Positions 20,403 through 54,612 of a stretch of DNA of 64,000 bases are shown piece by piece (position 1 is the first letter of the stretch; the number at the start of each line of letters is the position of its first letter). This DNA is from Okamejei kenojei (taxonomy: Eukaryota). The notes under the pieces were generated by a model that saw only the letters and a list, made by a program, of their open reading frames with translations, made no database searches and was not told the origin of the DNA. Location of the stretch: NCBI GenBank assembly GCA_035221665.1, contig CM069133.1, positions 44,826,001 to 44,890,000 on the forward strand, read 5' to 3'. The position numbers and the translations under genes were made by a program.

Positions 20403-20451
20403 ATGCTGTTTATTTTGCTTTGTGTCTTTGCACTGCCTGTCACCGCTGATC
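20403..20451 (+). CDS. Exon 1: signal peptide [16 protein letters not shown]
   Basis: ATG in context AGAATGC, hydrophobic leader, perfect donor C|GTAAGT in phase 1 that matches the exon 2 acceptor. Confidence 0.8.
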
Positions 20452-32400: not shown

Positions 32401-35400
32401 CTGTTAGTGTCACAATCCCACCTCTCCCAGCTCACCACGTGGTGAGGGTGACAAACAGCACAGCAAACATCGCAGCTCAACCGCCTTCCACAAGGGCAGG
32501 GACCCAGGGTGGGCGCAGCCTCCTACAGTGACTGTGGCCCTCAGATCAGTCTTAACGTTACATCTCTGTGTCTTCACAGGCTGCACTGTCAGTGGTTGGA
32601 ACATGCAGACACCGGACAAGGTGACGGGGAGGGTGGGGAAGCTCATGGTTCTGTACTGCAAGTTCACTCACCCTCACCATGAATACAAAGACAACATCAG
32701 CATCATCTGGAGTGAGAAGAATGCCAACAAGATCTTTTTCAAATACACAAATTATCTATCAAGCAACAAGTATAAAAATGTGATCATGAATAATGTAGAA
32801 ACTCGCTACAAACCAATGGGGGACCCGCGGAAGAACGATGCTTCCATAATCATTAATCAGCTGAGAAAGACGGATACAAACAAGGCCCTCAATTGTCGTG
32901 TTGAGCTCACAGAGCAAAACGGAGCAAATTTTGGATGCCCACATGGGCCTATCACAGTATCAGGTGAGGAATTATTGTAACTGAATGATTATTGTACTGT
33001 AAACTAATGATTTGCCTGTGATTCCGATGTCACTGGCATCGCAGACAATTGTTCAAGCTGTTGACTTGTTGGGTACATCACTGGGAGATCATGTCCTGGT
33101 TTGACCGCCTAAAATACAACACGTTGCACTAAACTGAATTTAACTCTATTAACCATCCCTCAACCCCACTTGACCCGCTGATCAACATCCTGCTGTCGTT
33201 TTTGATAACCATGTTCACTCATACTCCTCATTTCTGCCTTGACCATGATGTACAGTCACTGTGGAATGGGGTGATGTCATTGCCACATCTGGCCTGCTGT
33301 TATAGTCACATATTATGTCTCCTCCAGTTAAGTTTCAGATATTGGTATTGGTTTATTATTGTCTATTGCACTGAGATACAGTGCCATTTTTCCGAGTGCT
33401 ATCCTGACAAATCATACCATTGAGGCACTAGAAACTGCAGATGCTGGAACCATGAGCAAAACACAAAGTGCTAAAGACACAGTGGGTCAAGCAACATCGG
33501 TGGAGGAAATGGACAGGCAATTATCTGGGTGGGTTCCCTTCAAACTGATGGAGTAGTAGGGAGAAAGATGGGAATGGGGCAAAGCTTGCCCAATGATAGG
33601 TGGATGGAGGTGGAGGTGGGGGGGCATGGGGGAGGTGCCCATCAGATGGGTGGAGACAGTGATAATGGTGAGTGGTGGAAAGGAGACATAAAAGATGTCA
33701 GACAAGGAAACAAAATGTAAAGGCGGAGGCAAATGGATGTAATGGGTCAGGGGAGATGGGCAGGGGAAAGACGTGATAGAAGGAACTATGGGATTTGTGG
33801 ATGAGAGATGAATACGGGAGAAAAAAAGGAGCAGTGTGACAGGGATAATGGGAGCAAAGTGTGCACAGTGGGCTGGTGGGGGGGGGGGGGGAGTGGGAGG
33901 TATTATTTGAACTTTGAGAGTTCAGTGTTCATTACGGTTGGGTTACTCAAGCTACTCAAGCTGACCATGAGGTGCTGTTCTTCCAGTTTGTGTGTGCTCT
34001 CACGCTGATAATACACAAGGCCAGTGACAGTCAGGTTGGTGTGGGAACAGAAAGAGGAGTTAAAAAGCATAGTAACCAGGAGCTCCAGCAGGCCTTGGCA
34101 TGATTGGCAACCTGATAATCATGTTTCTCTCCTGCTTTTTTTCTGTTTGATGGCAATGTAACTATTGTAATCTTGTATTTAATACTTTCATCATTGAGCC
34201 CAGTGTCTCGCACTTCACTAACCATTGCCTCAATGTGTCACATTTGTTTTATTTAATTGTGTCTCGTAAGGAGTTTCTCCACATGTTCCTTGGCACCCTT
34301 TAGCATTGTTCTCCACTTCTACATATTCCATCTGCAATCTTGTTACAATTCAATGGAAAGTGAACATGTAGTAGAACATGCAGTAGAAAATGTAGTAGGG
34401 GTATACTACATCCACTGGATCCTCCCTTATCAATCCTGCTTGATATATTGTCTACCCTAACCCTAAACTTCACTTAAAGTGTCAACAGAACTTCCCCTTC
34501 ATCAAGAATTAAAACAGAAATTGCTGTAAAATTAATCAGGTCTGAATGCAAAGTCAACTGGAGGGGCGACATTATCAATGTAGGGAGATGTGTTGCTGCT
34601 ACTCAGGAGGATTTAATCTAGTTTGGCAGAAAGTTGGTAACTGGAGCAGGTGGAGCGTTTGAATGGGATGTAGACTTCAGCTTAAGACTGATCAGAAGGG
34701 CTGGCAGGGCCAGGTTAACGAACGCTATTTATAAAGAAGATGAAGTTACATATATAGTTACATTTCACCTCTCTAGAGCAGCGCTGGAGGGTCACGTACA
34801 GATGGGTCAGAGTGGGAGTGGGATGGAGAAACATGGTCACAGATGTGTAGGAAGGAACTGCAGGTGCTGATTTATACCGAAGATAGACACAAAATGCTGG
34901 AGTAACACAAAGTGCCAGGCAACATCTATGGAGAAATGGAATAGATTCTTCTTCAGGTCTGAAGAAGCGTTCCATTCAGAAACATCACCTGCTCCTTTTG
35001 TCCAGAGATGCTGCCTGATCCGCTGAGGTACTCCAGCATTTTGTCTATCATCGTGGTCACAGACACAGGTGAAGTATTGATGAAGAAAATGTGGTTAATG
35101 CGTTCGACCAATGAATAATGCCCATATTTTAAATCTTTCTCTATCCGAGGTGATGTCAGCGCATCCATGGTGATTGGGAAGAGAGGAGGTGGTGCCACAC
35201 TGAGCTGCCCCTTCAGTCGCTCGAGCGTAAAGAGCAAGGTGATCACTATCAACTGGATGAAGGGGACTCCATGGGGAGAGTCCGTTGTCTTTAATTTTAC
35301 CCGCCCCTACCCCACAGGTGGCCACGGCACTGTCAATGTAAATATAGGAGGTCGATATGAGCTGGTGGGAAGCCTAAACAAGGGAGACGCCTCCATCAGA

Positions 35401-38400
35401 GTGAGGGGACTCACGTTGAATGACACCAACGACTATTTCTGTCATGTTTGGACCTGGAATTCCCCTCTGAATAAAGATATTCAGGTGACTCAGGATGAGA
35501 CGGGACTACAGGTTTTGGGTAAGGAAACAGTCAGTGTTGAGGAGTAAATGATAAAATCACATTGAACAATGGTAAGCAGAATGAGCTTCGTTCTGTTTCA
35601 TCTCTGAATATTTCACTCCATTCTCCTGCTGGGTCTCTTTCAAATCTTCACACCTTCCTGGTTCTCCCCCTGCACCAATGAATAACAGTGAATGTAATTG
35701 ACTTTTATCCCTCTCTAGGCTTCAGCCACCATCTTGGAGCAATCGTGATAATGTATCTGGAGATACCTGTGTGTGCGGGAGGGAATGGGCAGGTTGATCA
35801 TTTGAGCTGCCATTTTTTGAGTCTACTTTCTTGTGATTGGCTTCACTTTCTAGTGTTAAACATAGGTGGACATCATGTCCAATCTCCATTGCTGGTGTTC
35901 ATGGGAGATCATGGGACCTCCAGTGACATTGTTGTCAGCCTCTGGTTCTGGTAATGAGGGAGGGGAGAAGAGAGAGTAACTCAGGTGTGAGTGATCCTTG
36001 ATTATGTTGGCTGTTTTCCCAAGGAATAAATGCAGTTGATGGGCGGGGGAATGAGGGAAAACCTTTTACTCGATCTACATGGTTAATCCTGAGCTTTCTG
36101 TTGCTTGTAATCTTAATCATCCATGCAATTCCCCCTCTGACTATTTTTTGTGATTTTCTTATAACCAGTCTAATGCAATTTGAAGAACAGGGCTCACTGC
36201 ATCATTCCAGATTGCATTGAATTCAAGAATTTTGGATGTTACTTTTTCTCTCTTTACTCAGAACTAACCAGCTCTACTGAAGATCAGCAAACTGGAATAT
36301 TAATCAGTTATTCTCTCAACGATTATTGCAACTTAAAATAAGTTAGCTGAAGTTGCAGGGGTTGTATAGAGGGGCGGATTGGAAATAGGAAATATCTCTG
36401 AAAGGGTGAGTCTAGGTTTGCTGTTGATGAAATTATCTGGTTGATAAATTAAAGAAGAAAGCTGGAGACAGAGAACACAAACAAAGATATAAACCAGAGC
36501 TGCAAAATGCACGTCAGAGCTGCAAGAAACACCCTGCAGATCAGGCAGTGTCAGTGGAGAGAGGAGACCTGAGTCAGTCTTGCAGATGGATAACCTGCTG
36601 CAGAACTTCTGATAAAAACAGCGAGAAAGTTACCAGAAATTGTTGTATTCAATGTTGACTCAATGATTCATTGGATCAACCTTGAATAGAACAATTTCTG
36701 GTGACTTGCTCGCTGTTTGTATCAGAACTGGCGGGTTCTACCACATCTGCGATACTGACAGTTCTCCTGAAGAAGAGTCATGACCCAAAACGTCACCCAT
36801 TCATTCTATCCAGAGATGCTGCCTGCCCGCTGAATTACTCCAGCATTTTGTGTCTATTTTCGGTTCAATGATTTCTTTATTATCACATGTACCAAGTGCA
36901 GTGAAATACTTTTTTGCATACAGATCAGTAAGAATATCACCTTACATAAATAAGCACAATCCCCCCCGGTTAGTACATAATGTACAGAAGAATCCACTGA
37001 GTCTGGGCAACAGTTGCCATTTTGCACCATTTTACAGTCCTAGTTGCAGTGGCCATAGAGGCCCATTGCAGCCGCCGCTTCTATTCCAGTTGTCCTGGAA
37101 TGTTGACCCTCACCTTGCACAGCCCTCTTCAGCCCTTCTTCCCCACGGGCGGTGTGTGGTGGGGGGGCTTCTCCCGCAGATGAGATTAAGGTGCGGAAGT
37201 TAAAAACCCCTCCACCCCTCCTGATTCGGTTGACCATGCCATTTCTGGTTGGCTGTCAGTTACTAGCAGAGTTCCGCAGGGTTTGGTGCTTTGGCCGCTG
37301 CTCTTCACGTTGTATATTAATGATTTGGATGAGGGGATTGAAGACTTTGTGGCCAAGTTTGCGGATGATACGAAAATAGGCGGAGGGGCAGGTAGTGCAG
37401 AGAAAGCAGGGTGTCTGCAGAAGAACTTGGATAGGTTGGGAGAGTGGGCAGAGAAGTGACAGATGGAAAAGTGTGGAAAAGTGTGGAGTCATGTATTTTT
37501 GTAATAGGATTAAAGGCGTTGATTAATTTCTAAATGGGGGAGAGAATCCAGAATTCGGAGGTGCAAGGCGACTTGGGAATGCTCGTGCAGGATTCCCAAA
37601 AAGTTAATCTGCGAGTCGATTCAGTTGTAAAGAAAGCAAACAAAATGGGATGTGGAGGAGATGTTTCCATTAGTGGGATAGTCTAAGACGAGAGATTTTA
37701 GCCTCAGAATTAAAGGACGTCCTTTTAGGAAGGAGATGAGGAGGAATTTCTTTGGTCGGAGTGTGATGAATCTATGGAATTCTTTGCCACAGAAGGCTGT
37801 GGAGGCAAAGTCGGTGGATATATTTAAGGCAGAGATAAATCGATTCCTGATTAGTGCGGGGTGTCAGAGGTTATGAGAAGGCTGGAGAATTGAGTTAGGA
37901 GAGATAGATCAGCCGCGATTGAATGGCGGAGTAGCCTTGATGGGCCGAATGGTCTAATTCTACTCCTATCACATATAATTGTATGAACCGTGCCTCCGTA
38001 GATGAGCTTATGGTGCAGACCCTAAGACCCCCACCCCACCCAACCTGATTCAGCTACCCACGCCTTTAGCCATCCTCCTCTCTGGTTCCTCATCTTCAAG
38101 GTCAAAGCTCAATGGGAGCCATGAAGGCTCCATCTTGTCCAGACTAAAGCTGAGATGTCTTTAGTTCAGATTGGCCCTTAATAGAATACTGCAGGAGGTC
38201 AGGAACAGATGGATCAGAGTGGGAATGGGATGGAAAATCCAAGTCACAAATGTGGATGAACTATTGATAAAGACCGTGTGGTTATTGTATTCAATTACTA
38301 AATCATATTCACACTTTAAAACTCTTCTCTATGCAAGGTGATAATGACAGAGCATCCATGGTGATTGGGAGGAAGGGTGCGACTGCCACACTGCCCTGCT

Positions 38401-41400
38401 CCTTCAGTCCCTCGAACAGGAATCCCAGCTCCATCACCATCAGCTGGATGAAGGGGAATCCATCAAAATGGTCTGTTGTCTTTCATCACACTTCTCCCCG
38501 CCCAGCAGCACATCGCATTCCTGTAAATGTAAATATAGGGGATCGATATGAGCTGGTGGGAAACCTTACGCAGGGAGACGCCTCCATCAGAGTGAGGCAA
38601 CTCAAACTGGGTGACGCCAGCGATTACTCCTGTCACGTTTCTGTCAGGAATTCAACGTTGATGACTGTGACTCAGGATGAGATGAAACTGCAGGTTGTGG
38701 GTAAGGAAACGTAAGTTATGCTGTAAACGATAATATCATATTGAACAACCTTAAGAGGAATGAGCTCCCACTGACAGCGTAGACCAGCACAGGAACAGGC
38801 CCTTTGGCCCGCAATGTCTGTACCAAACATGATGCTACGTTAATCTCATCTACCTGCAGGTGATACATTTCTTCCATTACCTGCATTTCAAAAAGCCTCT
38901 AAAACTCCACTATCATAGCTGCCTCCACCTCCACCCCTAGCAGTATTTTCCTGGCACCCACCACCCTCTATGTAAACAATAACTTTCCCCAAATATCTCC
39001 TTTCATCTTTTCCCCTCTGTCCTTATCACAATGCCGTCTATTCATTGACATTTCTGCCATAGGCAAAGGATTCTGACTCTCTGTCCTATCCATGTCTTTC
39101 ATATTTTTATAAACTTTCGACAGTCCAGAAAAACAGTTCAAATATGTCCGACCTTTTCTTATCACTAATACCCTCTAATCCAGGCAGCATTCTGGTAAAC
39201 CTCTTCTGAACCCTTTGCAAAGTTTCCACATCCTTCCTGTAATGGGTGAGAACTGCACATAAAACAGAATGCAATAATCCCAGTGTCGTAACTAAAGTTA
39301 TATAGAGCTACAACATGACTTCATGACTTGTATTCAGTAGATAGACACTAAATGCTGGAGTAACTCACCGGGGACAGGCAGCATCTCTGGAGAGAAGGAA
39401 TGGATGACGTTTCAGATCGAGTATCTTCTTCTTGACCCGAAACATGACCCATCCTTTCTCTCCAGAGATGCTGCCTACCCAGCTGAGTTACTCCAGCTTT
39501 TTGTGTCCATTTTCAGTTTTAACCAGCATCTGCAGTTCCTTCCTACACTTCTTGTATTCAGTATCTTGACCAATGAAAGCAAGCATACTGTACACGTTTT
39601 TAACATGTTGCCATTTTCAGAGAGTTATGGAATTGGATCCCAATATTTTTCTGTACATCAGTAATTTTAAGGGTCTTGCCCTTGTCTACTTTCCACTTGC
39701 ATTCAACCTCTCAAAGTCAACACTTCACACGTGTTCGGATCAAACTCCATCTGCCATTTCTCTGCCTATATCTGTATTTAGATTAAAAATTGCAGTATCT
39801 TTCTACAGTTCTACAGTTATCTGCCTTCCTCATGATAGTCTTGCACTTTCAATAAGCACACTACAGACCATGCGTGGGTTTGATATTTGAGCTGCCACTT
39901 ATGTGGACTGTACTCTTGCAATTGACTTCACTTTCTCATGTTTGAACAGAGGTGAACGCCACTGTCTCATCTCTAATGTCACTGTTGACAGCAGTCTTGT
40001 GCCATCTCCAGTGATATTGTCATCAGCCTATGGTTATGGTGGTATGGGTCAGGTGATATTGACTTCTGAGGCAGTTCTGGCCAGTTCTTGTACAAACAAT
40101 AAAGGGCCTGTCCCTCTTTGGTGACAACTGAAGACAACTGAAGACTTCTCTTGATGCCGGTAGCTGTCGCCGGTTGACGTAGGTTGACTTAGGTAGTCGC
40201 CAATTGAATTCACCGAAGTCAGCACCGGCGACAACCTACGTTATCCTGGCAACAACCTACGACAGCACCTACGTCAGGAGAAGACAAGCTACGAGAAGCC
40301 CAAGGTTGCCAAGAGTCGCCGAAAAGTTTAGACCATTTCAAAATCCAGCGGTGATCAGAAAAACGTTACGACTCTTTAGGCGACTTGAGGAGACAACTCA
40401 CAACCATACAGATGATACCCGGCGACCGTGTGGCGACTGCCCAGTCGCATGTAGTGGCCTAAAAAAAATCGCGTAAGTTGGACAGGCCTTAAGCAAGTTA
40501 TTGAAATTGTTGCTTTAAATGTTAGCACAAAGGCTTCATGCTGCCCAGACAGAAGATGAGGTGCCGTTGCTTGAGATTGGGCCTCGTTAGAACAGTGCAG
40601 GAGGTCTGAGACAGACAGATCAGAGCGGTAGTGGGATGGAGAATCAAAGTCACAGGCATGGATGATGTATTTTTATAAACCATGTGGAATAGATTGTTAA
40701 ATACAGCTTTTGTCTTTACAAGATGGAAAGAAGAAGACACCCATGGTGATTGGGAAGAGAAGAGATTCATCCATACTGCCCTGCTCCTTCAGCCCCTTGA
40801 ACAAGAATACCAGCCCCATCACTGTCCGCTGGATGAAGGGGAATCCACGGGAGGAGTCCACAGTTTTTAATCACACCCACCCCCACTCTGTGAACCGTCC
40901 CTACACTGTCACTGTAAAGGGAGGAGGTCGATATGAGCTGGTGGGAAAACTAGACCAGGGAGACGCCTCTATCAGAGTGAAGGAGCTCAGAGTGAACGAC
41001 AGCAGTGACTATTTCTGTCACGTTTGGGTCAGGAATTCCACACAGGAGACGGTGACTCAGGATGAGATGAAACTGGAGGTTGTGGGTAAGGAAGATCTGT
41101 CTGTGTTGTGCTGTGAACGATAAAATCACATTAACAACTGTAAGAGGACATGAGATCCACTGACAGCTGGAGCCGAGATCGGCCCACTCCATTGTAGGTT
41201 CCAACCCTTGCCCTGGGCTTCCCTTGCTCAGCACTGCCCCCAGTGGTTGGACAACAGTGCTGATTCCAGCCAGAATGCACGGAGCTCCCTGCAGCAGGAT
41301 CAGAGATTCAGAACCACATTCATCTGCTGAACCTCCAGTCCCTGTGTCTGTGACATGGTCTGTGTTGCAAAGATCCACAGACTGCCCTGGGGTATTTACA

Positions 41401-44400
41401 TCCGTCTCTTTCATTCACATTGAGTCCGGGAACCTGTATGTTCTCTCACTGAATATTACACAGACAGTACAGCACAGGAACAGGCCCTTTGGCCCGCAAT
41501 ATCTGTGCAGAACATAATGGTACTGTAAGTTAAACTAATATCATCTGCCAACACATGATCCATATCCCTCCATTTTCTGTAGATCCATGTGCTTCTTAAA
41601 AACACTATCATATCTACAAATATTTCACTGCAGTCTCCTAGGTGTGTTCTTCCAATCCCCATTCTGAAGGACTCTATCTGCACACACCATCAACAGTGAT
41701 TAATTCAATTAATTTAATTTAATTTCTTCCTTCTCCAAGTCCCAGCCACCATCCTGAAGCTGTCTGTTGTGAGCGACAATGTAACTGGAGAACACACCCT
41801 CGTGTGCTGTGCTGAAGGGAAGCCCCCTGCAAACATCACGTGGATCGACCCAGGGAACAGCGCACTGCCCGGGAACAGTAGTGAGATGACAGTCACGCAT
41901 GATCCAGAGAAACTACTGACTGTGGGAAAGATGCTTCACCCCAGACTGCCAGGGAAATACACGTGTGTGGCTGTGAATGAGTACCAGAGAGACACGCGTG
42001 AGATCCCCCTATTCGACGATGTGAAATGGTTGGTGCAGGTCCTCCGCTTTGGATTACCCATATTTGCTATTGTCCTCCTTGTGATGGTATTTGTTCTCGT
42101 GTCTTTGAAAAAAGGTGAGTTCGCTAATAACAACTGCATTGTGGGCTGTTGTGGGTGTTCTTGGGACAGGTGGCATTTTCAAATATTATAGGCCAGAAAT
42201 GTGAACAGGAGGCCAGTCATCCCTGGTTAGGCCACATTTGGAGTATTTTGTCCAGTTCTGGTCACCACATTTCAGGAAGGATTTGGACACTTTGGAGAGG
42301 GTGCAGAGGGTTACAGAATATTGCCTGGATTAGAAGATTTTAGCTATAAGGAGAGGTTGGATTGTTTTTCTCTGGAACATCTGATGCTGAGGGGCGAACT
42401 GATCAAAGAATGTCAAATTCTGAGACACATAGTTAGTCTTTTTCCCCGGAGTTGAGGTCAAAAACTGGAGGGCGTGGTTTAAGGTGAGAGTAGGAAAGTT
42501 TTAAAGGAGATTTAAAAAGTGCCATTTGTTCAGAATGGTTGGTGCCTGGAATGTGCAACCAGGGGAGATGTGGAAGCTGACATGATAGCATTGTTTAAAG
42601 AGCATTTATACATGTAAATGTGCATGGAATGGAAATAGATCAACCATGTGCAGAGAGATGCGATCGGTTTAATTTGGCATTGTGGTCGGCACAGACATCG
42701 TGTGCCAACGTTAAATCTTCAGTTCTGGTGGACTGGGGCTGTACCCCTTGAAGGGTCAAGTCTGCCCTCACCATTGTTACCCTGACAGACCTTTTCCATG
42801 GTGACTTGGGTATAACAGGGTCAGGAATTCCTGTTCTCAATAATACAGTCCTGAGATAAGGTATTCATTGCCCTTTCCCTCCGATTAATTTGTGGGAAGG
42901 TTCGGCGGTGATTCTGTCCTAAGATCCTCGCTGTTCTTCAAATGCTTGGGTATCATTTGAAAAAGGTTCTGAGCTTTCCGAATCAATCGTGGACCAGTTT
43001 GCAGATTATGTGAAATTGAGTGGGAATGTGATGGCTCAAGGTTTGAAGAGAAAATGTGAGATAATCCACTTCAGTAAAAAAAGCTGGCAAACTTCAATAC
43101 TGTTACAGCGGTGACGGATTGGGGAATACCGAAGTAACTCAATTTATGTATTAAACCGGTGGATTTCGGAAAACAAATGTAATGTTGGCCTTTAATGCAA
43201 GAAGATATGAACTCAGGTATAAATGTATAGGTCCTTGGTCTCTATGCTATCAAAAGGACATGTGGGCGTGGAGAAGATGTTACCAGCAGTGAGAGAGTCC
43301 AGGACCAGAGGGCACAGCCTCAGAATAAAAGGATGAACCTTCAGAATGGAGATGAGGAAGATTTTTTTTTTAGCCAGAGACTGATGAATCGGTGGAATTC
43401 AATGCCACAGGCAACAGTGGAGGTCTAGTCAGTGGAAAGTTTAAAGCGGAGATTGATAGGCTCTTGATTAGGTCCTTAGATTTGTACAACAGCAACAAAT
43501 TCTTGCATTCATGTATTAATTTATTATTATAGTCACTTCTACTGTGATACAGTGAAAATCTTTGTTTGCATGTTATTTGGTCGAATCTAATCATACTACA
43601 CTTGAGTACAATCAATCCATATACAAGTACAACAGGTAGTGTAGATAGAAAAATAGCAGAGTACATAATATTGTGTTTTAGACTAGTAGAGATACAGCGT
43701 GGAAACAGGTCCTTTGGCCCACCATGTCTGCGCCGACCAGCGAGCACCCTGTATCATTAATACTTATGTCTATCATGTGTGGGAGGAAACCAGAGCACTC
43801 AGAGAAAACCCAAGTGGTTACAGGGAGAACATACAAACTCCATACAGACAGCACACATAGTCACGATCGAACCCGGGTCTCTGGCGCAGTAAGGCAGCAA
43901 TTCTACTGCTGTGCCACTGAGCTATCCGTAGTTACTTCATTGCAGTGTTACAGCTCCAGAAAAAATTCAGATAAAAAGAGAAAAAATGCAAGGGTCGCAC
44001 TGAAGTAAGTTGGAAGATCGGGACTGCACCTTAGTTTGTGGGAGGACCATTCAGTAGTCTGACAAAAGTGGGGGAAGAAGCTGTTCCTGAATCTGGTGGA
44101 TTGTGTCTTTAAGCTTATGTATCTTCTGCCCAATGGGGGAGGGGAGAAGATCCTTGATTATGTTGACTGCTTTCCTAAGGCAGCGTGAAGTGCAGATGGA
44201 GTCAATAGTGGGAAGTGTGGTCTGTGTGATGGACTTGACTACATCCCCAACTCTCTGAAATTTCCTACAGTCTTGGGGAGCTGTTCCCAAGCTGTGAAGC
44301 ATCCTGAGAGTATCCCGAACCTGACCCAAAACATTATCTATCCATTTCTCTCCACAGAGCCTGCGTGGCCCTCTAAATCTCTCCAGCACTTTGTTTTTTA

Positions 44401-47400
44401 CTGGGGAAAGTAGTTAGGGAGCAGCTGCTCTTGGGACAAGTTTGCATCAGGAAGTGAGAGTGATTTAATGATGAGAGGTTGTAAATTTAGTCTCTAAGGA
44501 AAAGGATGCATATGCAAAGTTTAAGGAACTGAAATTAGGCAGGGCCTTTAAGGAAGATTATGAAAAAGGAAAGGGAATTATGAGGCCCAGATGGGTTAGA
44601 GCTGAAAGTAGAGAAGTGTGCTAAAGGAGGAGAGTGGGAGAGGTTACAAGAGGGAATTCTCACAGAATACTTTCCTGTGTCTTTGACAGGTTCACAGCAG
44701 CGTGTGTGTTGTGTTGATGCCAGCGTGGCCAATGGTCGGAAACCACAAGGACCAGAGCCAGGTAATTGGGGAATCTGCTTAAACTTCCTTTCACATTGAG
44801 GACATTCTTTGGAAAAGCAGAACTGAAACCTGCATTTAATAACTGGCCTTTCAATTGTCGCTACCACCTACCCTCCTTCCCTACCTCCCATAGCCTCCTA
44901 ATTAGATCAGCAAAGACAATCCCTCTCAGAGCAAATCGGGTTGTGTGTTCAAGTGGAATATTAATACTTAAAAGACTCGCCTCAAGGCCCAGGGCTTGCA
45001 CTAAGATTCCAGATTCCTCAGTCATGGGAATTAATCTATTCTGTCAAACATACTGGAAGTATTTAATATTGGATACCTGTCCTTAACTCTAAAGATTGAA
45101 GGTCCAACCTATTTAATCTCTTTGTCATCCCAGAAACCAGCCTCATGAACTTTTGCTGCACAACCTGCAAAGTAAGTACAGGTAGTTCTGCTCAACATAG
45201 GTTTCGAAATTTTAAATTGGCCACAACAGGATTGCTGAAATAGGTAATGCTATTATGCAGCCTGAATTGGTTATAAAGTAATCTCTATCAGAAAGTAGAG
45301 ATCCAGTTAAAAGTTACTTAGGAAAGCAGAAAAAAAGCATGTTCATGTAACCTCTCTGCAGTAATAGTAAGATTAAACAAGAACTTACCAGTTTGAAGTT
45401 TGATCTTTATTTTATGAGGCGTTACGATGAGGGATTACGTGAAGAACACCGTCCAGCCGTTGGTGCATCAATCTTCAAAGCAGCGGAGTGAAATCACAGG
45501 TAATAATGACTGAAGTATAATAGTACGATAACAGAGACTAGAACTACTAGATGATATTTATGAGGGTTGGGAGCGGAGGGCACGTAATCCCTTATCATAA
45601 ATTGAGAAACTAATGGATGTGTCCCTACTGAATGTAACTCTGAACTCATGGGTAAATAAGAAGACAGAGCACTTCTGGCTGTATTAATCGCACTATAGCT
45701 TAATTTTTGATCAAAGTAAAGAGTGGACAAAAACTCCAGTACGTCTGGGATGCCTGCAATTTGATGTGAGATATTCTGCTGTAGACAGAATACATCCCAC
45801 TTCCTTATCGAGGTGATGTACTGCTTCTGAGTACTATCCCTACAGGCCTACATGAGAACATCCATGGTATGATCAGACAGTCCTCTCCCCAGGTATGGCC
45901 TCCTTAAAATCTGCAAATTAACAGATCAATACGATCATGTAAAGGATGTTGATCGCCAGTTACTGGATTTACCAGTAGATTTTTACATTTGGGAATAATC
46001 ATGTGAGGCTGACAAGCAATTTGCAATACGAGAGGGAACCATGGTTGTGTAGGCTAATCTGGTACTACCAATACTCCTAAAGCGGAGTCCTACTTAATTT
46101 TTTGCAAGCATCGACTGATGAGACAGAATGGAGGAAATGCATCAACAAACATTCCACCCCAATGCAGTGAGAATGCATCCACCGCTGCTGCACCAGGATC
46201 TGGTTCCCATGAAACATATCTGGGCAACTGATGGTTTAGTCTAGATGCAAACAAGTCTATATCTGGCATTCCATACTGAGCAACCACTTGATTAAATATG
46301 TCCTGATTTAACATCCATTCTAAGTTATCATCGAATTGGCGTGACCTAATGTCAGCTACTGTGTTGAATCTACCTGGTAAATATATTGCTGAAAGCCAGA
46401 TGTTTTGGTCAATGCACCAGCCCCAGATCTGATTAGCCAGTCTATCACAAGACTGTGACTTGACTCCATCCATGTGGTTTACATATGCCGTTGCTGTAGT
46501 GTTGTCAATCTGAACCTGCACCTGCAAGTCACTCCTGGCAGAGCAATAAGCTTTAAGCCCATACCAGGTTCCCAAAAGCTCTAAATAATTGATCCCTCTT
46601 AATTGAAGAAGGGATGTCTCATTAGTATTCCATCTGCCTCCACAACTGGAAGACATATCTGTAGCACCCCAACCCAGCGCACTGACATCCGTCTGTAATA
46701 TTATGGAAGGTGGTTAAACCAAAACCTCCCTGGAGCTTTTTGAGACATTTATGATCCACCATTGAATGTCTGAAATTGCCCCAGCTGACAATTGCATAGG
46801 CCTATCAAAATGACCCGCATGTGTCCTCAGTGCCTGTTCTTTTGCTCGTTGTAATTGTTGATAATGCAGAGGTCCAAACTGCACAGCTGGAAAAGCAGCC
46901 ACCAATTTACCAATTAAACTGGCTACTTGGCTAATTGAAGGTCCTTGTTCACTAAGGAGATTAACACAATCCTCAATTAACTGCTGCCATGTGTCCCTGG
47001 GCAAAGTCACTAACATGTGATTCAAATTAATGGTAAAGCCCAAATAATCAATGATTTGAACTGGTGACCATTTGGATTGCCATTAGGCAATGCTATACGT
47101 CCCCCAGTCTTTTTAGACCTAGGAAAAATACTTTATAGAATCATAGAATCATTGAAAATAGGTGCAGGAGTAGGCCATCAGCCCTTCGAGCCTGCACTGC
47201 CATTCAGTATGATCATGGCTGATCATCAAACTCAGTTCCTAGATTATTTACCAAATTGTTAAAACCTGTTCTAGGATTACTCCAAGCTCAGGGGCATGTT
47301 GTAATGGCCCATTTAGATGATATTTTAATTGTCGGGAAGACTCGGGCTGTAGCTGAATCATCTGTTTCAATTGTTAAACTCACTTTTGAACAATTAGGGT

Positions 47401-50400: not shown

Positions 50401-53400
50401 TTTTCACATTGTGTTGGTCTTGAGTCCTTGTAATAATAAATACCTCACACCTTGGCAGGTTATACACTGTTTATTTAGAATAAAGAACTACAAGCTCTTA
50501 CTTGAGAGTTAACTTCATACTGAAGAGTGCAGTAGCTCGCGACGCTAATAAGCTAGTGCAAATAAGCGTAACGACAAAAGCATGACTCATAACGAGCCAC
50601 TGATCTGCACATTGGCACAATTATTTTCAGAATGTAATTTTCTACAATAAGATGTTCCTTAAGAATGCAGCATTCGTGGTATAGCTGAACTGTCTGTACA
50701 TTGCTTTTTGGGGTAAGGAGACCAATATTATACCTAATACACCAGCTTTGGTCTTGAAAGGCCAATGTAATTTGGAATTGATCCTATTATTCCCAAAGTA
50801 ACAATACCTGATCAATGTATCTCATAGGTTTGCACAAAGAACCTCATCTATGTAACCCTCCACCACCCCTGAGGATAGGGTTGGAAAGTTCTGCATGTTG
50901 CGATTACTCCAGGATTCCCTTCTGTTTTATCTACAGTTTTGACCCTGTGGGAGGGGATGAGGTGGACAGTTTGGGAGCTCTAATTTCTCTATTAAAATAC
51001 CCATTGTTTTTTTGTGTCTTTGACAGGTTCACAGGAGCCTGAAGGGGACCCTATTTACAGTGTTGTTGATTTAAACATGGAGACAAGAAACAGGGCAGCC
51101 ACCCAGGCAGTTCCAACACCAGGAGAATTGGACAGGAATGTTGGTGAGTGCAGTGATGGTGATCATTTGGAATTTGCACAGAGGTAACCTGGAGGAAGAG
51201 ATGCAGGAAGTAAATGCCAGCTTTCATGATCCAGCTCCTGTGGTTAAAAGTTGTAATTTTATGGATACAGCATGGAAATAGGCTCTTCCGCCCACTGAGT
51301 TTATGCCAACCATTGATCATACTTTCACACTAATTCTATATCAACCCACTTTCTCATCTCCTTGGATCTTTGGGGCAATTTTACAGTCCAATTAACTCGC
51401 ATATCTATGAGGTGGTGGAGGAAACTGGAACAGCCGGAGGTAACCCGAGCATTCACGGGGACAAACACAGACTCTATACCAACAACACCCAAGCTCAGAA
51501 TTGAACCCAGATCTCTGGTGATGTGTTGTGGTGCAACTGGCAGAGCTGCTGCCTCACAGCGCTTGAGACCCGTGTTTAATCCCAACCTTGGGTGATATTA
51601 GTGTGGAGTTTGCACATTTTACCAGCTGTGCCACTGTCGTTGAGCAAGGGAACTCCTATTGATCTGAGAAACAAAGAGGAGATGTTTCTGAGGCAAGCTG
51701 GAGTAGGTAGAGATCCCAAGGTTAGCAAAGTGGACCAGCTTACAGACAATCTTCACACTGAGATGCCCCCGAGCTGGAGCCAGTGGAGGTCAATGGAGCG
51801 TAGTGTACAGATTAAAACTCATGTAAGCGGTGACAAGGCGGGAACTATTTAAGATAGGGACAAAGTTTCAGCAGCAGAAGTGTTTGGAGTGGGGCTGGGG
51901 GGAACATACAGTATCATGGATGTAGAAATTAGAGGCATTAGAGTGAGAAAAACTTGACTAAGCTCCCAAAGCATCTTTGCAGAATGGATTTGAGAAGATG
52001 CTTGGTCTTGTGAGCAAACCTGGAACGAAGAATTACTGTTCACAAGTAAGGGTCACCTACTTTAAGATGACTTGATTTTTGTTCCTTAGATCAACTGTCT
52101 TTGGAACTCTCTTCCTCAAAAGATTAAGTTTTGAATATTTTGAGCCAGAGATAGATGGAGAATATCTGGAAACAGAAATATCTGGAAACCCACAACAGGT
52201 CAGGCAACCTCTGTGAAAAGAGAAAGCACCAACATTTGTGCTGGACACACCTTTGTCAGACTTTTCATGCTCTTTAGGAGCACAGGGGTGAACGTTTAGC
52301 ACAGGAGATATCAGTCATGATGTCATTAAAAAGCAGAGCTGAGTGGTTGATTCTTGCTCTCAACTTGTATTCAAAGGTTACAAAGGACTTTTATTGTCAC
52401 GTACCATTTAAGATACAGTGATATGCAAATTATCATACTGCCATACAAGAGACACAATTACATAAAAGTAAACATCCACCACAGCAGATTCCCTACTTTC
52501 CTCACTGTGATGGAAGGCCAAAAAGTCCAATCATCATCCCCTTTAAGGAATATAGGAGTGAAACCTTTCCTTGCAAACACAGGAGATACAAACCTATCCC
52601 TACATCTCATCCCTTACATCCATCCAGGAACCTCCAGCAGTCCTTCCAGGTGAGACAGAGGTTCACCTGCACCTCCTCCAACCTCATCTACTGCACCTGA
52701 TGTGCCCTCCTTTCCATTGGCGAGACCAAATATAGCTTCGGCGACCGTTCCACTGAACACTAACTCTGTGCAACAAGATCTGCTGGATTTCTCTGTTGCT
52801 ATGCATTTTAACTCCCCTTCCCATTCCCACCCTAACCGCACTGTCCTGGGCCTCCTCCATTGTCAAAGTGATACCATACACAAACAGCACCTCATAATCT
52901 ACTTGGGTCATTTACAACCTAACGGTGTGAACATTGAATTCTCCAATTTTAGGTAACTTACCAACAAAACCCATCTCCACTTCTCCCCACCCCCTTCCCA
53001 CCCCACCTTTCTCTTCTCTATGCCCCATCACTACGAGCACCCATTTTAATTCTTCCTCTCCCCTTCCACCCACATTCATTCCTCTGGCTTCACAATTCAC
53101 ATATATCCTTATCTCTCACCTTGAGTCTTTCACCTCTGGCCACTGTTCAACCCACCTGCCAATCAAATAACCCCTTCATGTGTAGGGAACAGTGAACACA
53201 TGGTGAGCAGCAAAACACTGCCAGTCCCAAGATTCGCGCCTCCAGGGTCTTGTCAATATTCTATTTTTCACCTGCAGGGAAGTAAAACTGCAGAAAAGGG
53301 AGTAGGGTGAAAGGAGAAGGGAGAGATTGGGCTGTCAGGGCTTGGGCTGGGGGGGAGAGAGACAGTTGGACAGTTACAGTTTTACACGTGTACCGAGGTA

Positions 53401-54612
53401 CAGTGAAAAGCTTTTGTTGCGTGCCATCCAGTCAGCAGAAAGACAATACATGATTACAATCGAGCCATTTACAATGTATCGATACATGATAAAGGGAATA
53501 ACATTTAGTGAAAGTAAAGCCAACAAAGTCTGATCAAGGACAGTCCGTGGGTCACCAAAGAGGGAGATAGTAGTTCAGGGGCTACGATTGTGAGGTTAAG
53601 ATAGCAAGGCGATGAAGTTGTGCAATAAATTTGTGTCCTTTCCAGATTCCTGTGACTCTTCAGATGCCCTCATTTACAGCATTGTTCACATTCAAAGCCG
53701 TTCCCGAGTAGGAGTGGAGATGGGTAAGGAACAGTCAGCACACGGTGAGCTGTGAAACAACAGTAGCAGTGTGGACGCTCCATGCAAAATAGTGTCCTCA
53801 ACAGGCTGGGAGGCAAACCCTTGATGTATTGATTAGAAACATCCACTGGCATTGACAATACACACTGGGCTTCCCATCGAGCCTGTGATCCTGAGCTCTC
53901 CATATCCAACATTCAGGGAAGGTGCAGCAAAGACCAGACATAGTGGAAGCAGTAACAAAGACCCAGGACATAGAGTTACTAGAGATCCTGGTGTTGTTTA
54001 TTTTCCACTTCCCATCATCGGGCAGCCAAGCATCAGACCTGGAAGTACAATGCTGTCTGTTCTGCAGTACATTTCTGTATCTATAGAAGCAGCGAGGGTT
54101 CTCTTGGGCTTGCCATGTATCACAATGAGGGGTGAAGAACAGTCTTGGCAAAAGATGGACCACTATAGGAAGGGCAATTGGAACAGGCATGAGACAGCGA
54201 TTATCAAAGGTGGGGACTCATGGAGTCATACAGCACAGAGACAGGCTCTTTGGTCCAACTTGCTCAAGCCAGCCAAAATGCCCCATCCACACTAGTCCCA
54301 ATTGCCTGCATTTGGCCCATATGCCTATACACCTTTCCAATCAATATACCTGTCCCAATGTCGTTTAAATGGGAGTGGGTGGTTTGTGATAAAAAACAGT
54401 GGGGAAGAGATGCTGGAATGCAATAACAATCTGTGTTCTTTTCAGACCCCCAGGAGTCTCAGAATAACACTCTCTATGGCAATGTGCACATTCAAAGACC
54501 TCCCTGCAAAGAGGAGGAGACTGGTAAGGACCACCGAACACACCGTGAACGGCAAAATACACACATCTGCGAAGACACCGCTTGGGAACACATCAAACCC
54601 ATTTCATACTGA
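20403..54612 (+). CDS. Spliced Siglec-15-like type I IgSF receptor (SP-V-V-V-V-C2-TM-cytoplasmic ITIM/ITSM). Join 20403-20451, 32580-32963, 35150-35518, 38338-38700, 40723-41085, 41740-42114, 44690-44761, 51027-51143, 53646-53723, 54446-(54523 donor or 54612 stop)
   Basis: All exons are bounded by AG/GT, all junctions are phase 1, internal exon lengths are multiples of 3 (384, 369, 363, 363, 375, 72, 117, 78, 78) and there are no in-frame stops. Domain order is that of a type I receptor. The 3' end is uncertain. Confidence 0.85.
22833..23738 (-). mobile_element. 5'-truncated CR1 inserted in L1 ORF2
   Basis: (gaaacata)n tail; [14 protein letters not shown]. The L1 QTGFIPKRQS coding sequence resumes across it, with TATA on both sides. 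Confidence 0.92.
26061..30682 (-). mobile_element. Full-length DIRS1-group retrotransposon (gag ~30476-29285, RT/RNase H ~29310-27500, tyrosine recombinase ~27509-26590), ORFs frameshifted
   Basis: [13 protein letters not shown]; RNase [12 protein letters not shown] and PDIDLF; [11 protein letters not shown] and ILATAGW. Inverted terminal repeats and an internal complementary region at ~26281-26395. Confidence 0.95.
32311..32378 (+). repeat. Short tandem duplication at the L1 5' junction
   Basis: agtctgatagtgga occurs three times; cagcaggagtctgatagtgga occurs twice. Confidence 0.8.
32580..32963 (+). CDS. Exon 2: N-terminal V-set Ig domain, Siglec-15-like, retains the sialic-acid-binding Arg
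   Basis: Acceptor ttcacag, donor G|gtgag. Motifs [25 protein letters not shown] and CRVEL parallel my recollection of Siglec-15 (VLPCTFTHPH, GNPRRNDLSL, YFCRVEF). Arg codon at 32897-32899. Confidence 0.9.
33425..34110 (-). mobile_element. Degenerate Penelope-like 3' fragment
   Basis: gaaactgcagatgctgg end and gagttcagtgttcat...gaggtgctgttcttcc, reverse-similar to the PLE fragment at ~52555-53180. Confidence 0.65.
34850..35050. repeat. Palindromic Penelope-derived short repeat with hammerhead-like core
   Basis: gatagacacaaaatgctggagta ... tactccagcattttgtctatc inverted arms; ctgaaga...gaaac at ~34959-34983. Confidence 0.65.
35150..35518 (+). CDS. Exon 3: V-set Ig domain 2
   Basis: ATLSCPF...INWMKG...RYELVG...GDASIRV...DTNDYFCHV. 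Acceptor ccgag, donor G|gtaagg. Confidence 0.9.
35608..35770 (+). pseudogene. Truncated relic of a C2 exon and its acceptor intron after V2
   Basis: ag|gcttcagccaccatcttggagc...gataatgtatctggaga resembles the exon 6 start ag|tcccagccaccatcctgaagc...gacaatgtaactggaga. Upstream intron aatatttcactccattctcct matches aatatttcactgcagtctcct at ~41619. Confidence 0.65.
37240..37985 (+). mobile_element. CR1 LINE degenerate 3' fragment
   Basis: VPQGLVL, INDLDEG and KFADDTKIG remnants plus CR1 3' UTR. Confidence 0.85.
38338..38700 (+). CDS. Exon 4: V-set Ig domain 3
   Basis: ATLPCSF...ISWMKG...RYELVG...GDASIRV...DASDYSCHV. Acceptor gcaag, donor G|gtaagg. Confidence 0.9.
38775..39330 (-). mobile_element. 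Old CR1 3' fragment
   Basis: cagcacaggaacaggccctttggccc tail and aatccaggcagcattctggtaaacctc. Confidence 0.7.
39338..39545. repeat. Palindromic Penelope-derived short repeat
   Basis: gctggagtaactca...ggcagcatctctggagag ... ctctccagagatgctgcc...tgagttactccagc inverted arms. Confidence 0.75.
40103..40489. mobile_element. Non-autonomous PIF/Harbinger-type MITE
   Basis: TIRs agggcctgtcc / ggacaggcct flanked by TAA at 40100-40102 and 40490-40492; internal gtcgcc/ggcgac repeats. Confidence 0.75.
40723..41085 (+). CDS. Exon 5: V-set Ig domain 4
   Basis: SILPCSF...VRWMKG...RYELVG...GDASIRV...DSSDYFCHV. Acceptor tacaag, donor G|gtaagg. Confidence 0.9.
41740..42114 (+). CDS. Exon 6: C2-set Ig domain plus transmembrane segment
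   Basis: [16 protein letters not shown]...GKYTCVAVN, then hydrophobic [20 protein letters not shown] and a KK stop-transfer. Polypyrimidine acceptor, donor G|gtgagt. Confidence 0.9.
42210..43480 (+). mobile_element. Two degenerate CR1 3' fragments
   Basis: [13 protein letters not shown] remnant (ggttaggccacatttggagtat) and RTRGHSLRI remnant (aggaccagagggcacagcctcagaata). Confidence 0.7.
43680..43920 (-). mobile_element. HE1-like V-SINE
   Basis: Reverse complement of the SINE head and body: tgtgggaggaaacc, gatcgaacccggg, gtaaggcagcaa. Confidence 0.75.
44690..44761 (+). CDS. Exon 7: cytoplasmic, [24 protein letters not shown] (no Tyr)
   Basis: Acceptor tgtgtctttgacag|GTTCACAG is identical to that of exon 8. 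Donor G|gtaatt; 72 nt, phase 1-1. Confidence 0.65.
45363..50164 (-). mobile_element. Second DIRS1-group retrotransposon (different subfamily) in intron 7, internally deleted and rearranged
   Basis: Same outer termini (aatagtaagattaaa... and ...ctcacgtgactccgaagtaaaat). Gag ORFs 49969-48889; RNase [25 protein letters not shown] and AFPPF. The ICR is truncated at ~45600. Confidence 0.92.
47137..48488 (-). mobile_element. 5'-truncated CR1 inserted in the DIRS RT
   Basis: tagaatcatagaatca tail; [17 protein letters not shown] and [13 protein letters not shown]. Confidence 0.92.
51027..51143 (+). CDS. Exon 8: cytoplasmic, [39 protein letters not shown] (ITIM-like)
   Basis: Strong polypyrimidine acceptor, donor G|gtgagt, 117 nt, YxxV motif. 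Confidence 0.8.
51265..51620. mobile_element. Two opposed SINE remnants
   Basis: Minus copy 51265-51515 (ggaggaaactgg, gaattgaacccag) and plus head 51530-51620 (gagctgctgcctcacagcg). Confidence 0.6.
52555..53180 (+). mobile_element. Penelope-like 3' fragment (GIY-YIG endonuclease region)
   Basis: [29 protein letters not shown] and [10 protein letters not shown]. Confidence 0.8.
53646..53723 (+). CDS. Exon 9: cytoplasmic, [26 protein letters not shown] (canonical ITIM LIYSIV)
   Basis: Acceptor tcctttccag, donor G|gtaagg, 78 nt. LxYxxV at 53669-53686. Confidence 0.8.
54446..54612 (+). CDS. Exon 10: cytoplasmic, [26 protein letters not shown]... (ITSM TLYGNV). Ends at donor 54523 or reads through to TGA 54610-54612
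   Basis: Acceptor ttcttttcag; TxYxxV at 54469-54486; internal donor G|gtaagg gives a 78-nt exon, like exon 9. Confidence 0.75.

What the first reader, a model, noticed from the sequence alone, without database searches (positions are those of the whole stretch)
32891..41021. Essential Arg kept in V1 but His in all three duplicated V domains
Seen: the F-strand reads C-R-V in V1 (CGT 32897) and C-H-V in V2 (CAT 35443), V3 (CAC 38634) and V4 (CAC 41019). Known: this Arg forms the salt bridge to sialic acid in Siglecs. Inference: only the distal domain is a lectin, and V2-V4 act as a stalk or bind another ligand, possibly in a pH-dependent way through His. CGY to CAY is a single CpG-type transition that would predate the triplication.
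Basis: partly seen in the sequence, partly recalled or inferred. Interest (0 to 1): 0.72.

Follow-up and report, generated by a model that had tools for sequence, protein, structure and literature searches.

The report
Skate Siglec-15-like receptor with spacer domains
A skate immune-receptor gene keeps a complete sugar-binding (sialic acid) site only in its outermost domain, while three inner copies are old, non-binding spacer domains left over from fused neighbouring gene units; it belongs to a little-studied shark and ray family of paired "calm" and "attack" receptors.

Summary
The four codons are as stated. They lie in one intact skate gene: leader, V1-V4, C2/TM and a tail with ITIM and ITSM motifs. 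V1 folds like Siglec-15 (Z 19.0, rmsd 1.7 A) and keeps the W44, R143 and Y154 equivalents. V2-V4 lack all three, so they are unlikely to be lectins at any pH. The His is no skate novelty: His V domains are a separate lineage, 25-28% identical to V1, found back to chimaeras (45 of 52 rows His); a sister family has Leu there. A CpG origin is possible but not shown; pH sensing has no support. New beyond the finding: (1) the introns after V2 and V3 hold dead C2/TM ends of an Arg-in-membrane class, so the gene is a chimera of tandem units, not a plain exon triplication; (2) in a sister family the distal Arg is kept in 28 of 29 tyrosine-tail members but only 14 of 28 membrane-Lys members (not significant after correcting for kinship). 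Best reading: an inhibitory sialic-acid "self" sensor on a lengthened stalk. Binding and expression are untested.

The parts
20403..20451 (+). Leader exon (ATG to phase-1 donor), 12 kb upstream of V1
   Evidence: tblastn of orthologues, 92% identity to Amblyraja leader; GT donor and open frame
32580..32963 (+). V1 exon, distal Siglec-15-like V-set; Trp codon 32597 (W44 equivalent), Arg codon 32897 (R143), Phe codon 32930 (Y154)
   Evidence: model matches 7zoz at Z 19.0, rmsd 1.7 over 121 residues
35150..35518 (+). V2 exon, proximal-type V-set without A strand; His codon 35443; weak GAG acceptor
35719..35970 (+). Dead terminal exon after V2: start of a C2 exon joined by a large deletion to a decayed Arg-class TM segment; stop codon at 35803 where live genes have the TM Arg
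   Evidence: local alignment to the live C2 exon scores 114 against a shuffle maximum of 39; tblastn to Pristis P0042 E 6e-9
38338..38700 (+). V3 exon, proximal-type V-set; His codon 38634
39861..40055 (+). Dead Arg-class TM segment after V3 (no C2 part detected); stop codon at 39888 at the TM Arg position
   Evidence: tblastn to P0042 E 2e-15; aligns to the first remnant at 136 against shuffle maximum 37; no C2 match above shuffles
40723..41085 (+). V4 exon, proximal-type V-set; His codon 41019; four N-glycan sequons
   Evidence: model matches 7zoz at Z 15.9, rmsd 2.3 over 114 residues, from chain residue 49
41740..42114 (+). Live C2-set plus transmembrane exon; no Lys in the membrane core, an Arg at its outer edge
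44690..44761 (+). Cytoplasmic exon 1
51027..51143 (+). Cytoplasmic exon 2 with ITIM-like PIYSVV
53646..53723 (+). Cytoplasmic exon 3 with ITIM LIYSIV
   Evidence: consensus as in PMC7226832
54446..54523 (+). Cytoplasmic exon 4 with ITSM-type TLYGNV; the last exon (YATV motif in relatives) was not found in the window
   Evidence: ITSM consensus recalled

Best explanation
The gene encodes an inhibitory Siglec-15-like receptor of a skate. The distal V1 binds sialylated glycans through the Arg salt bridge and two aromatic contacts (inferred), the tail recruits SHP phosphatases through ITIM/ITSM motifs (inferred), and V2-V4 are non-lectin, glycosylated spacers that lift V1 away from the membrane (inferred). 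The His domain is the ancient second domain of a chondrichthyan V1-V2-C2-TM family (shown by alignment and tree). Its number rose from one to three in skates because tandem V-C2-TM units were read through after the C2/TM ends of the two upstream units died (remnants shown; order of events inferred). The His itself is most likely a structural residue of the F-G face next to the conserved Gln-Asp of strand G, not a switch.
For: Shown: intact 10-exon frame with ITIM/ITSM tail. V1's best solved match is Siglec-15 by sequence (E 3e-11) and fold (TM 0.86; Z 19.0 against 15.2 for the next). V1 has Trp, Arg and Phe at W44, R143 and Y154, the contacts named in PMC10264397. V2-V4 have none of the three. 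The number of proximal domains varies freely in relatives: 1 in most sharks and rays, 2 in a Heptranchias isoform, 3 in skates, 0 to 3 in the sister family. Within a species the proximal V and C2 of the membrane-Lys and uncharged-membrane paralogues are far more alike than their V1 (Pristis 79% and 91% against 49%; Leucoraja 74% and 78% against 46%), so V1 carries the class-specific function. The V1 Arg follows signalling class: Arg in 6 of 7 elasmobranch genes with an uncharged membrane core (window included), Leu in 9 of 10 with a membrane Lys; in the sister family Arg in 28 of 29 tyrosine-tail and 14 of 28 membrane-Lys proteins, with eight different replacement residues and at least 7 changes on the tree. 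A purely structural Arg would not relax in one class only. Dead C2/TM remnants after V2 and V3.
Against: No binding, expression or splicing data. Arg after the F-strand Cys is not diagnostic: 29 of 43 V domains of distant outgroup proteins have it too. V1 lacks the C95-C104 disulfide, the Y87 contact and the tyrosine corner of Siglec-15. Zebrafish Siglec-15, which keeps the Arg, bound the tested glycans only weakly (PMC7226832 passage). My strict prediction that membrane-Lys members lack the Arg failed in half the cases; the kinship-corrected test had only 5 pairs and is not significant (median p 0.5); in the gene's own family the contrast may rest on one loss, and the chimaera proteins do not follow it (Lys with Arg, P0028; tyrosine tail with Cys, P0029). 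His is kept in 40 of 46 non-redundant proximal domains over the whole class, more than an idle surface residue would be. The V1 model was folded from an alignment rich in Siglec-15 sequences, which may pull it towards that structure. Residue-level superposition was not available; the register rests on the adjacent Cys and on sequence alignment.
Confidence: 0.55

Rival explanations
1. V1 is not a sialic-acid lectin; it binds a protein or lipid ligand, and the Arg is part of a general F-G face, as in other V-set receptors. V2-V4 are still spacers.
For: Arg at this position in 29 of 43 outgroup V domains; V1 lacks the Siglec-15 C95-C104 bond and Y87; weak glycan binding of fish Siglec-15; V1 is only 32% identical to mammalian Siglec-15.
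Against: All three canonical contacts are kept together in V1 and the Arg and the G-strand aromatic are lost together in the nine Leu-type V1; Siglec-15 is clearly the closest fold, sialoadhesin third.
Confidence: 0.2
2. The His domains have a binding job of their own on the F-G-C face (cis dimer, co-receptor or a shared pathogen ligand), and three copies raise avidity rather than reach.
For: Phe97, His99, Val110, Gln112 and Asp113 form a conserved patch (84-100% of 25 rows); the domain has been kept across sharks, rays and chimaeras and is homogenised between activating-type and inhibitory-type paralogues, as ligand-binding domains of paired Siglecs are (PMC6288428).
Against: 30 of 120 columns are more conserved than the His; Leu or Gln stands there in the sister family; V3 and V4 carry a glycan sequon in the F-G loop next to the His; C2 is homogenised just as much, so conversion is not specific to this domain.
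Confidence: 0.15
3. One reading: V2-V4 are latent lectins whose His is protonated at low pH and then replaces the Arg.
For: The His lies at the R143 position and V4's closest fold is still Siglec-15; His is widely kept.
Against: The W44 strand and Y154 aromatic are gone; Tyr, Cys, Arg, Leu and Gln replace the His in relatives; Arg-to-His also arises in distal domains of membrane-Lys members alongside Cys, Gly, Ser, Asn, Gln and Tyr, which looks like loss, not a switch.
Confidence: 0.05
4. The four-V product is rarely made: V exons are skipped or the locus is a decaying array.
For: Weak GAG acceptor at V2, dead exons in two introns, last exon not found; several orthologous models are truncated or damaged.
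Against: Ten exons in frame without a stop; each V is 74-91% identical to its own counterpart in Leucoraja and Amblyraja (V1 71%), whose models join all four.
Confidence: 0.05

Closest known systems
Siglec-15 (human, PDB 7zoz; Lenza et al. 2023, PMC10264397)
   Same: Closest solved sequence and fold for V1 and closest fold for V4; B-F disulfide with Arg directly after the F-strand Cys; W44 and Y154 equivalents in V1; V plus one C2 plus TM layout; membrane-Lys paralogues in the same family.
   Different: Four V domains instead of one; no C95-C104 bond, no Y87; no membrane-core Lys but an ITIM/ITSM tail, so opposite signalling sign; belongs to a multigene paired family, whereas Siglec-15 is described as a conserved activating receptor.
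Paired Siglecs 5/14 and 11/16 (Angata 2018, PMC6288428)
   Same: Inhibitory and DAP12-type partners with extracellular parts homogenised by gene conversion; loss of the essential Arg in some lineages (here).
   Different: Those are CD33-related Siglecs of primates and convert the ligand-binding end; in this family the proximal V and C2 are homogenised and V1 differs by class, and the family derives from the Siglec-15 side.
Siglec-12/XII
   Same: A Siglec with two V-set domains and an ITIM-type tail, with a known loss of the essential Arg (R122C).
   Different: CD33-related; the loss is in the first domain and recent; here the distal Arg is intact and the non-Arg domain is as old as the shark-chimaera split. 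That its second V-set also lacks the Arg is recalled, not checked.
Lungfish multi-V Siglec-15-like proteins (XP_043934105.1, 2 V; XP_043935463.1, 7 V)
   Same: Tandem V-set multiplication on a Siglec-15-type C2 and TM.
   Different: All 9 of their V domains keep Trp, Arg and Tyr: repeated lectin heads, not a head on a stalk. Database entries only; no study found.

Membership tests
Siglec family | N-terminal V-set domain with Arg on strand F at the R143 position | tested here: met
   V1 Arg follows the F-strand Cys and aligns with R143; fold Z 19.0 to 7zoz
Siglec family | Aromatic contacts on strands A and G (W44, Y154 in Siglec-15) | tested here: met
   V1 has Trp and Phe at these columns; residues named in PMC10264397. 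Not met by V2-V4.
Siglec family | C2-set domain(s), one TM segment, and ITIM tail or charged TM residue | tested here: met
   C2/TM exon and LIYSIV ITIM
Siglec family | Arg-dependent binding of sialylated glycans | not testable with these tools
   needs a binding assay
Siglec-15 orthologue proper | C95-C104 disulfide in the V-set | tested here: not met
   Tyr at the C95 column in V1; no Cys pair in V2-V4
Siglec-15 orthologue proper | Lys in the membrane segment for DAP12 | tested here: not met
   absent from this gene; present in paralogues such as P0007, P0010, P0013
Siglec-15 orthologue proper | Groups with bony-vertebrate Siglec-15 in a V-domain tree | tested here: inconclusive
   quick tree: Siglec-15 clade (SH-aLRT 98) holds no chondrichthyan row; careful tree does not resolve the deep forks and splits Siglec-15 itself
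Siglec-15 orthologue proper | Conserved synteny | not testable with these tools
   no genome held; no flanking gene found in the window
Paired receptor family | Related members with tyrosine-motif tails and with charged TM and short tail in one species | tested here: met
   Leucoraja, Rhinoraja, Heptranchias, Heterodontus, Callorhinchus each have both; same in the sister family
Paired receptor family | Opposite signalling shown in cells; clustered on the chromosome | not testable with these tools
   only indirect: paralogues share the same longest-contig length within a species

The most novel reading that the evidence does not exclude
In rays and skates one leader plus one Arg-bearing V1 can be spliced to any of several downstream V-C2-TM cassettes, some ending in an Arg-in-membrane (activating-type) segment and the last in an ITIM tail, so a single locus makes both members of a sialic-acid-sensing receptor pair; in this skate the activating cassettes died and their V exons became the stalk of a purely inhibitory receptor. 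Fits: the two intronic remnants and seven Rhinoraja models of this TM class that have no leader and no V1 (P0022, P0024, P0027, P0030, P0031, P0315, P0316). Against: automatic models in tandem arrays are often fragments, and there is no RNA evidence.
Probability: 0.15. Interest if true: 0.75.

Novelty: new variant of a known kind. Interest (0 to 1): 0.45.

Why it matters
If V1 binds sialic acid, cartilaginous fish have their own large set of paired Siglecs, built from the Siglec-15 branch rather than the CD33 branch, with the sugar-binding Arg held in the inhibitory members and relaxed in the activating ones. That would place 'inhibitory receptor reads self sugar, activating twin drifts towards pathogens' at the base of jawed vertebrates as an independent invention, and it is directly testable with a few Fc fusions. 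The locus also shows a clear way to lengthen a receptor: read through dead terminal exons of tandem units. The Arg-versus-His contrast alone, as first reported, is ordinary: inner Ig domains of Siglec-like proteins need no binding Arg.

Tried and rejected
Expression: no RNA holder listed for the stretch; no read data were obtained, so splicing and expression stay open. No whole genome is held, so synteny and the last exon could not be checked; a short-query search for the last exon in the window found nothing convincing. Complex prediction of two V4 copies gave no answer (score 0.00, alignment not used); it is no evidence either way. NKp30, PILR and TIM were considered from memory as alternatives for V1: PILR (Z 13.6) lies well below Siglec-15 (Z 19.0), NKp30 itself is not among the 50 rows listed, TIM matches are weak. 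Strict rule 'membrane-Lys members lack the Arg': rejected, 14 of 28 keep it. 'V2-V4 are recent copies of V1': rejected (25-28% identity, separate clades). No C2 remnant above shuffle level between V1 and V2 or between V3 and V4. No second family gene in the window. Earlier scan notes: four look-ups, nothing relevant. Literature: ten searches found no paper describing these chondrichthyan receptors; the library lacks most subscription journals, so this is not proof that none exists. Supplements were not read; those of PMC8455134 list Siglec families and might bear on gene counts.
Full report
Observation. The four codons are present at the stated places and each follows the F-strand Cys. All four exons are Pfam V-set domains. 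tblastn with relatives and splice-site checks give ten exons, all phase 1 and GT-AG: leader 20403-20451, V1 32580-32963, V2 35150-35518, V3 38338-38700, V4 40723-41085, C2+TM 41740-42114 and four tail exons to 54523. They join to 749 codons without a stop. The tail holds PIYSVV, LIYSIV (fits the ITIM consensus given in PMC7226832) and TLYGNV (ITSM type, consensus recalled). The last exon was not found. The closest relatives are RefSeq models of Amblyraja and Leucoraja at 71-73% for V1, so the window is from a skate (inference).

Is the residue the Siglec Arg? Siglec-15 is V1's best solved relative by sequence (E 3e-11; CD33 next at 5e-5). An AlphaFold2 model of V1 (pLDDT 95.7) matches 7zoz at TM 0.86 and Z 19.0, rmsd 1.7 A over 121 residues, model 4-127 on chain 42-165; the next entry has Z 15.2. 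In Siglec-15 R143 follows the disulfide Cys142, and W44 and Y154 give the CH-pi contacts (PMC10264397, passages). V1 has Trp, Arg and Phe at these columns. It lacks the C95-C104 bond, the Y87 contact and the tyrosine corner. The tools give ranges, not residue pairs, so the register rests on the Cys and on alignment; the model was folded from an alignment rich in Siglec-15 rows. The V4 model (pLDDT 83.7) also has Siglec-15 on top (Z 15.9, rmsd 2.3 A, 114 residues; next 14.5) but aligns only from chain residue 49, so W44 has no partner. The Y154 column is Val in 25 of 25 proximal rows. V2-V4 have therefore lost the whole site, not one residue.

Age and origin of the His. A profile search gave 37 chondrichthyan proteins. 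Most are V1-V2-C2-TM. Of 52 proximal V rows (window included) 45 have His, 4 Tyr, 2 Arg, 1 Cys; after dropping 6 rows from isoforms or partial models, 40 of 46. Chimaera proteins have His, so it is at least as old as the shark-chimaera split. V1 is 25-28% identical to V2-V4, which are 52-58% identical to each other. In a careful tree of 50 chosen domains the distal V (97/93) and the proximal V form separate groups; the His domains (89/85) are sister to the proximal domains of a second chondrichthyan family (96/99), which have Leu in 80 of 96 domains, Gln 9, Val 2, His 1, 4 unscored. Deep forks are unresolved and the bootstrap had not settled. Outgroups mostly have Arg, so descent from Arg is plausible, but Arg-His-Leu, Arg-Leu-His and two separate changes are equally short; the CpG story is one option. 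The window's V2-V4 group together against the Pristis domain (99/83), and each has a one-to-one counterpart in Leucoraja and Amblyraja (74-91%), so the expansion is a skate-lineage event (conversion could mimic this).

How the three copies arose. The intron after V2 holds the start of a C2 exon with its upstream intron (score 114, maximum of 30 shuffles 39), joined to a decayed membrane segment; the intron after V3 holds a second decayed membrane segment. Both match a TM class with an Arg near its outer end that is intact in Pristis P0042 and Rhinoraja P0030 (E 6e-9 and 2e-15 to P0042), match each other (136 against 37), and match the live TM exon only at shuffle level (40 against 39; 33 against 33). 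Both read stop at the TM Arg position (35803 and 39888). So V2 and V3 were each the proximal V of a V-C2-TM unit of another signalling class, and the present gene reads through their dead ends to the last, ITIM-bearing unit. That this TM class is activating is an inference from recalled Arg-in-membrane receptors; its models read through a donor-like site, so its true tail is uncertain.

Does the V1 Arg matter? Arg here is not diagnostic: 29 of 43 V domains from 16 distant proteins (TIM-like by my reading of the sequence, hagfish and lamprey, others unnamed) have it. The better test is its spread by signalling class. In the gene's own family, 9 of 10 elasmobranch proteins with a membrane Lys and a whole V1 have Leu and also lack the G-strand aromatic; Mustelus has Arg and Phe. 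Of 7 elasmobranch genes with an uncharged membrane core, 6 have Arg (window included; Mobula Gln; the Pristis model shows no tyrosine motif). Chimaera does not follow the rule: Lys with Arg (P0028), Lys with Trp (P0034), tyrosine tail with Cys (P0029). This may be a single loss. I noted the prediction that the sister family would repeat it and searched (139 hits, 120 listed; 84 new chondrichthyan rows plus 15 held earlier were used). Of 99 proteins 84 had a scorable first domain; 57 fell in the two classes. Arg stood in 28 of 29 tyrosine-tail and 14 of 28 membrane-Lys proteins, the rest being His 5, Gly 2, Ser 2, Cys, Lys, Asn, Gln, Tyr. The strict prediction failed; the weaker one held. After dropping 4 isoform rows: 25 of 26 against 14 of 27, Fisher p 3.5e-4, at least 7 changes on the tree, but only 5 independent pairs, median p 0.5. 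The trend is suggestive, not established. It fits constraint on a self-ligand site in inhibitory members, and shows Arg-to-His arising among plain losses.

What the His domains do. Their number varies (1 to 3 here, 0 to 3 in the sister family). Within species the proximal V and C2 are far more alike between classes than V1 is (Pristis 79, 91, 49%; Rhinoraja 76, 76, 47%; Leucoraja 74, 78, 46%; one chimaera pair is alike throughout, 93, 90, 87%). V2-V4 carry 8 sequons, two in the F-G loop beside the His. A spacer is the simplest reading. His99 lies among conserved Phe97, Val110, Gln112 and Asp113, yet 30 of 120 columns are more conserved; a structural hydrogen-bond role is my guess, and a binding role of its own is not excluded. 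Nothing points to pH sensing.

Comparison with what is known. It works like an inhibitory Siglec and meets the sequence criteria of the family in V1; binding is untested. It is not Siglec-15 proper (no C95-C104, no membrane Lys; tree inconclusive). Paired Siglecs, conversion between them, two-V Siglec-12 and loss of the essential Arg are known in primates (PMC6288428, passages). PMC7226832 (passages) lists four Siglecs as regular in fish and has no occurrence of 'shark' or 'cartilaginous'. PMC8455134 and PMC13262535 (passages) mention Siglecs only in passing. Other papers were seen as search listings only. Ten searches found no description of this family; subscription journals are mostly missing from the library.

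Verdict. Observation confirmed; interpretation partly supported. The Arg/His contrast is real but ordinary once the His domain is seen as an old, non-lectin second domain. The value lies in the context: a seemingly undescribed Siglec-15-derived paired-receptor radiation in cartilaginous fish, a class-linked constraint on the Arg, and a chimeric origin of the stalk. New variant of a known kind; interest 0.45.

Noticed in passing
window 32582-32584 and 32936-32938: V1 has two extra Cys, one just before strand A and one on strand G beside the pocket. They vary together in the four skate sequences that show both places: both present here and in Amblyraja P0001, both absent in Amblyraja P0004 and Rhinoraja P0005. 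Possibly an extra disulfide at the edge of the binding site.
   Followed up: no
window 32880-32896: V1 has no tyrosine corner (ALNC for YxC, one residue longer); shared with other skate V1 domains, so not an assembly error.
   Followed up: partly
window 42018-42114: The live TM has an Arg at its outer edge (VLRFG) where Rhinoraja models have Cys or Trp; with an ITIM tail this could be a dual-type receptor, or just a border residue.
   Followed up: no
P0039, P0045 (Protopterus): Lungfish Siglec-15-like proteins with 7 and 2 V domains, all keeping Trp, Arg and Tyr: an independent multiplication of complete lectin heads.
   Followed up: no
P0213-P0296 and P0047, P0048, P0076: Two further chondrichthyan Siglec-15-like families: a large V-V-TM family without C2, with up to about ten models per species, and a single-V family with C2; all appear to share chromosomes with this family (equal contig lengths).
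   Followed up: partly
P0016 (Mustelus), P0019 (Rhincodon): Apparent returns to Arg: Mustelus membrane-Lys V1 has both Arg and Phe; Rhincodon proximal V has Arg where its relatives have His.
   Followed up: no
window 20452-32579, 45300-50200, 58000-60900: Introns and flanks are filled with decayed retroelement pieces (reverse-transcriptase and endonuclease-like frames; class names not tested); the first intron is 12 kb.
   Followed up: no
window 35147-35149: V2 uses a GAG acceptor and V3, V4 and C2 use AAG, all weak types; V-exon skipping, and so variable stalk length, is plausible.
   Followed up: no
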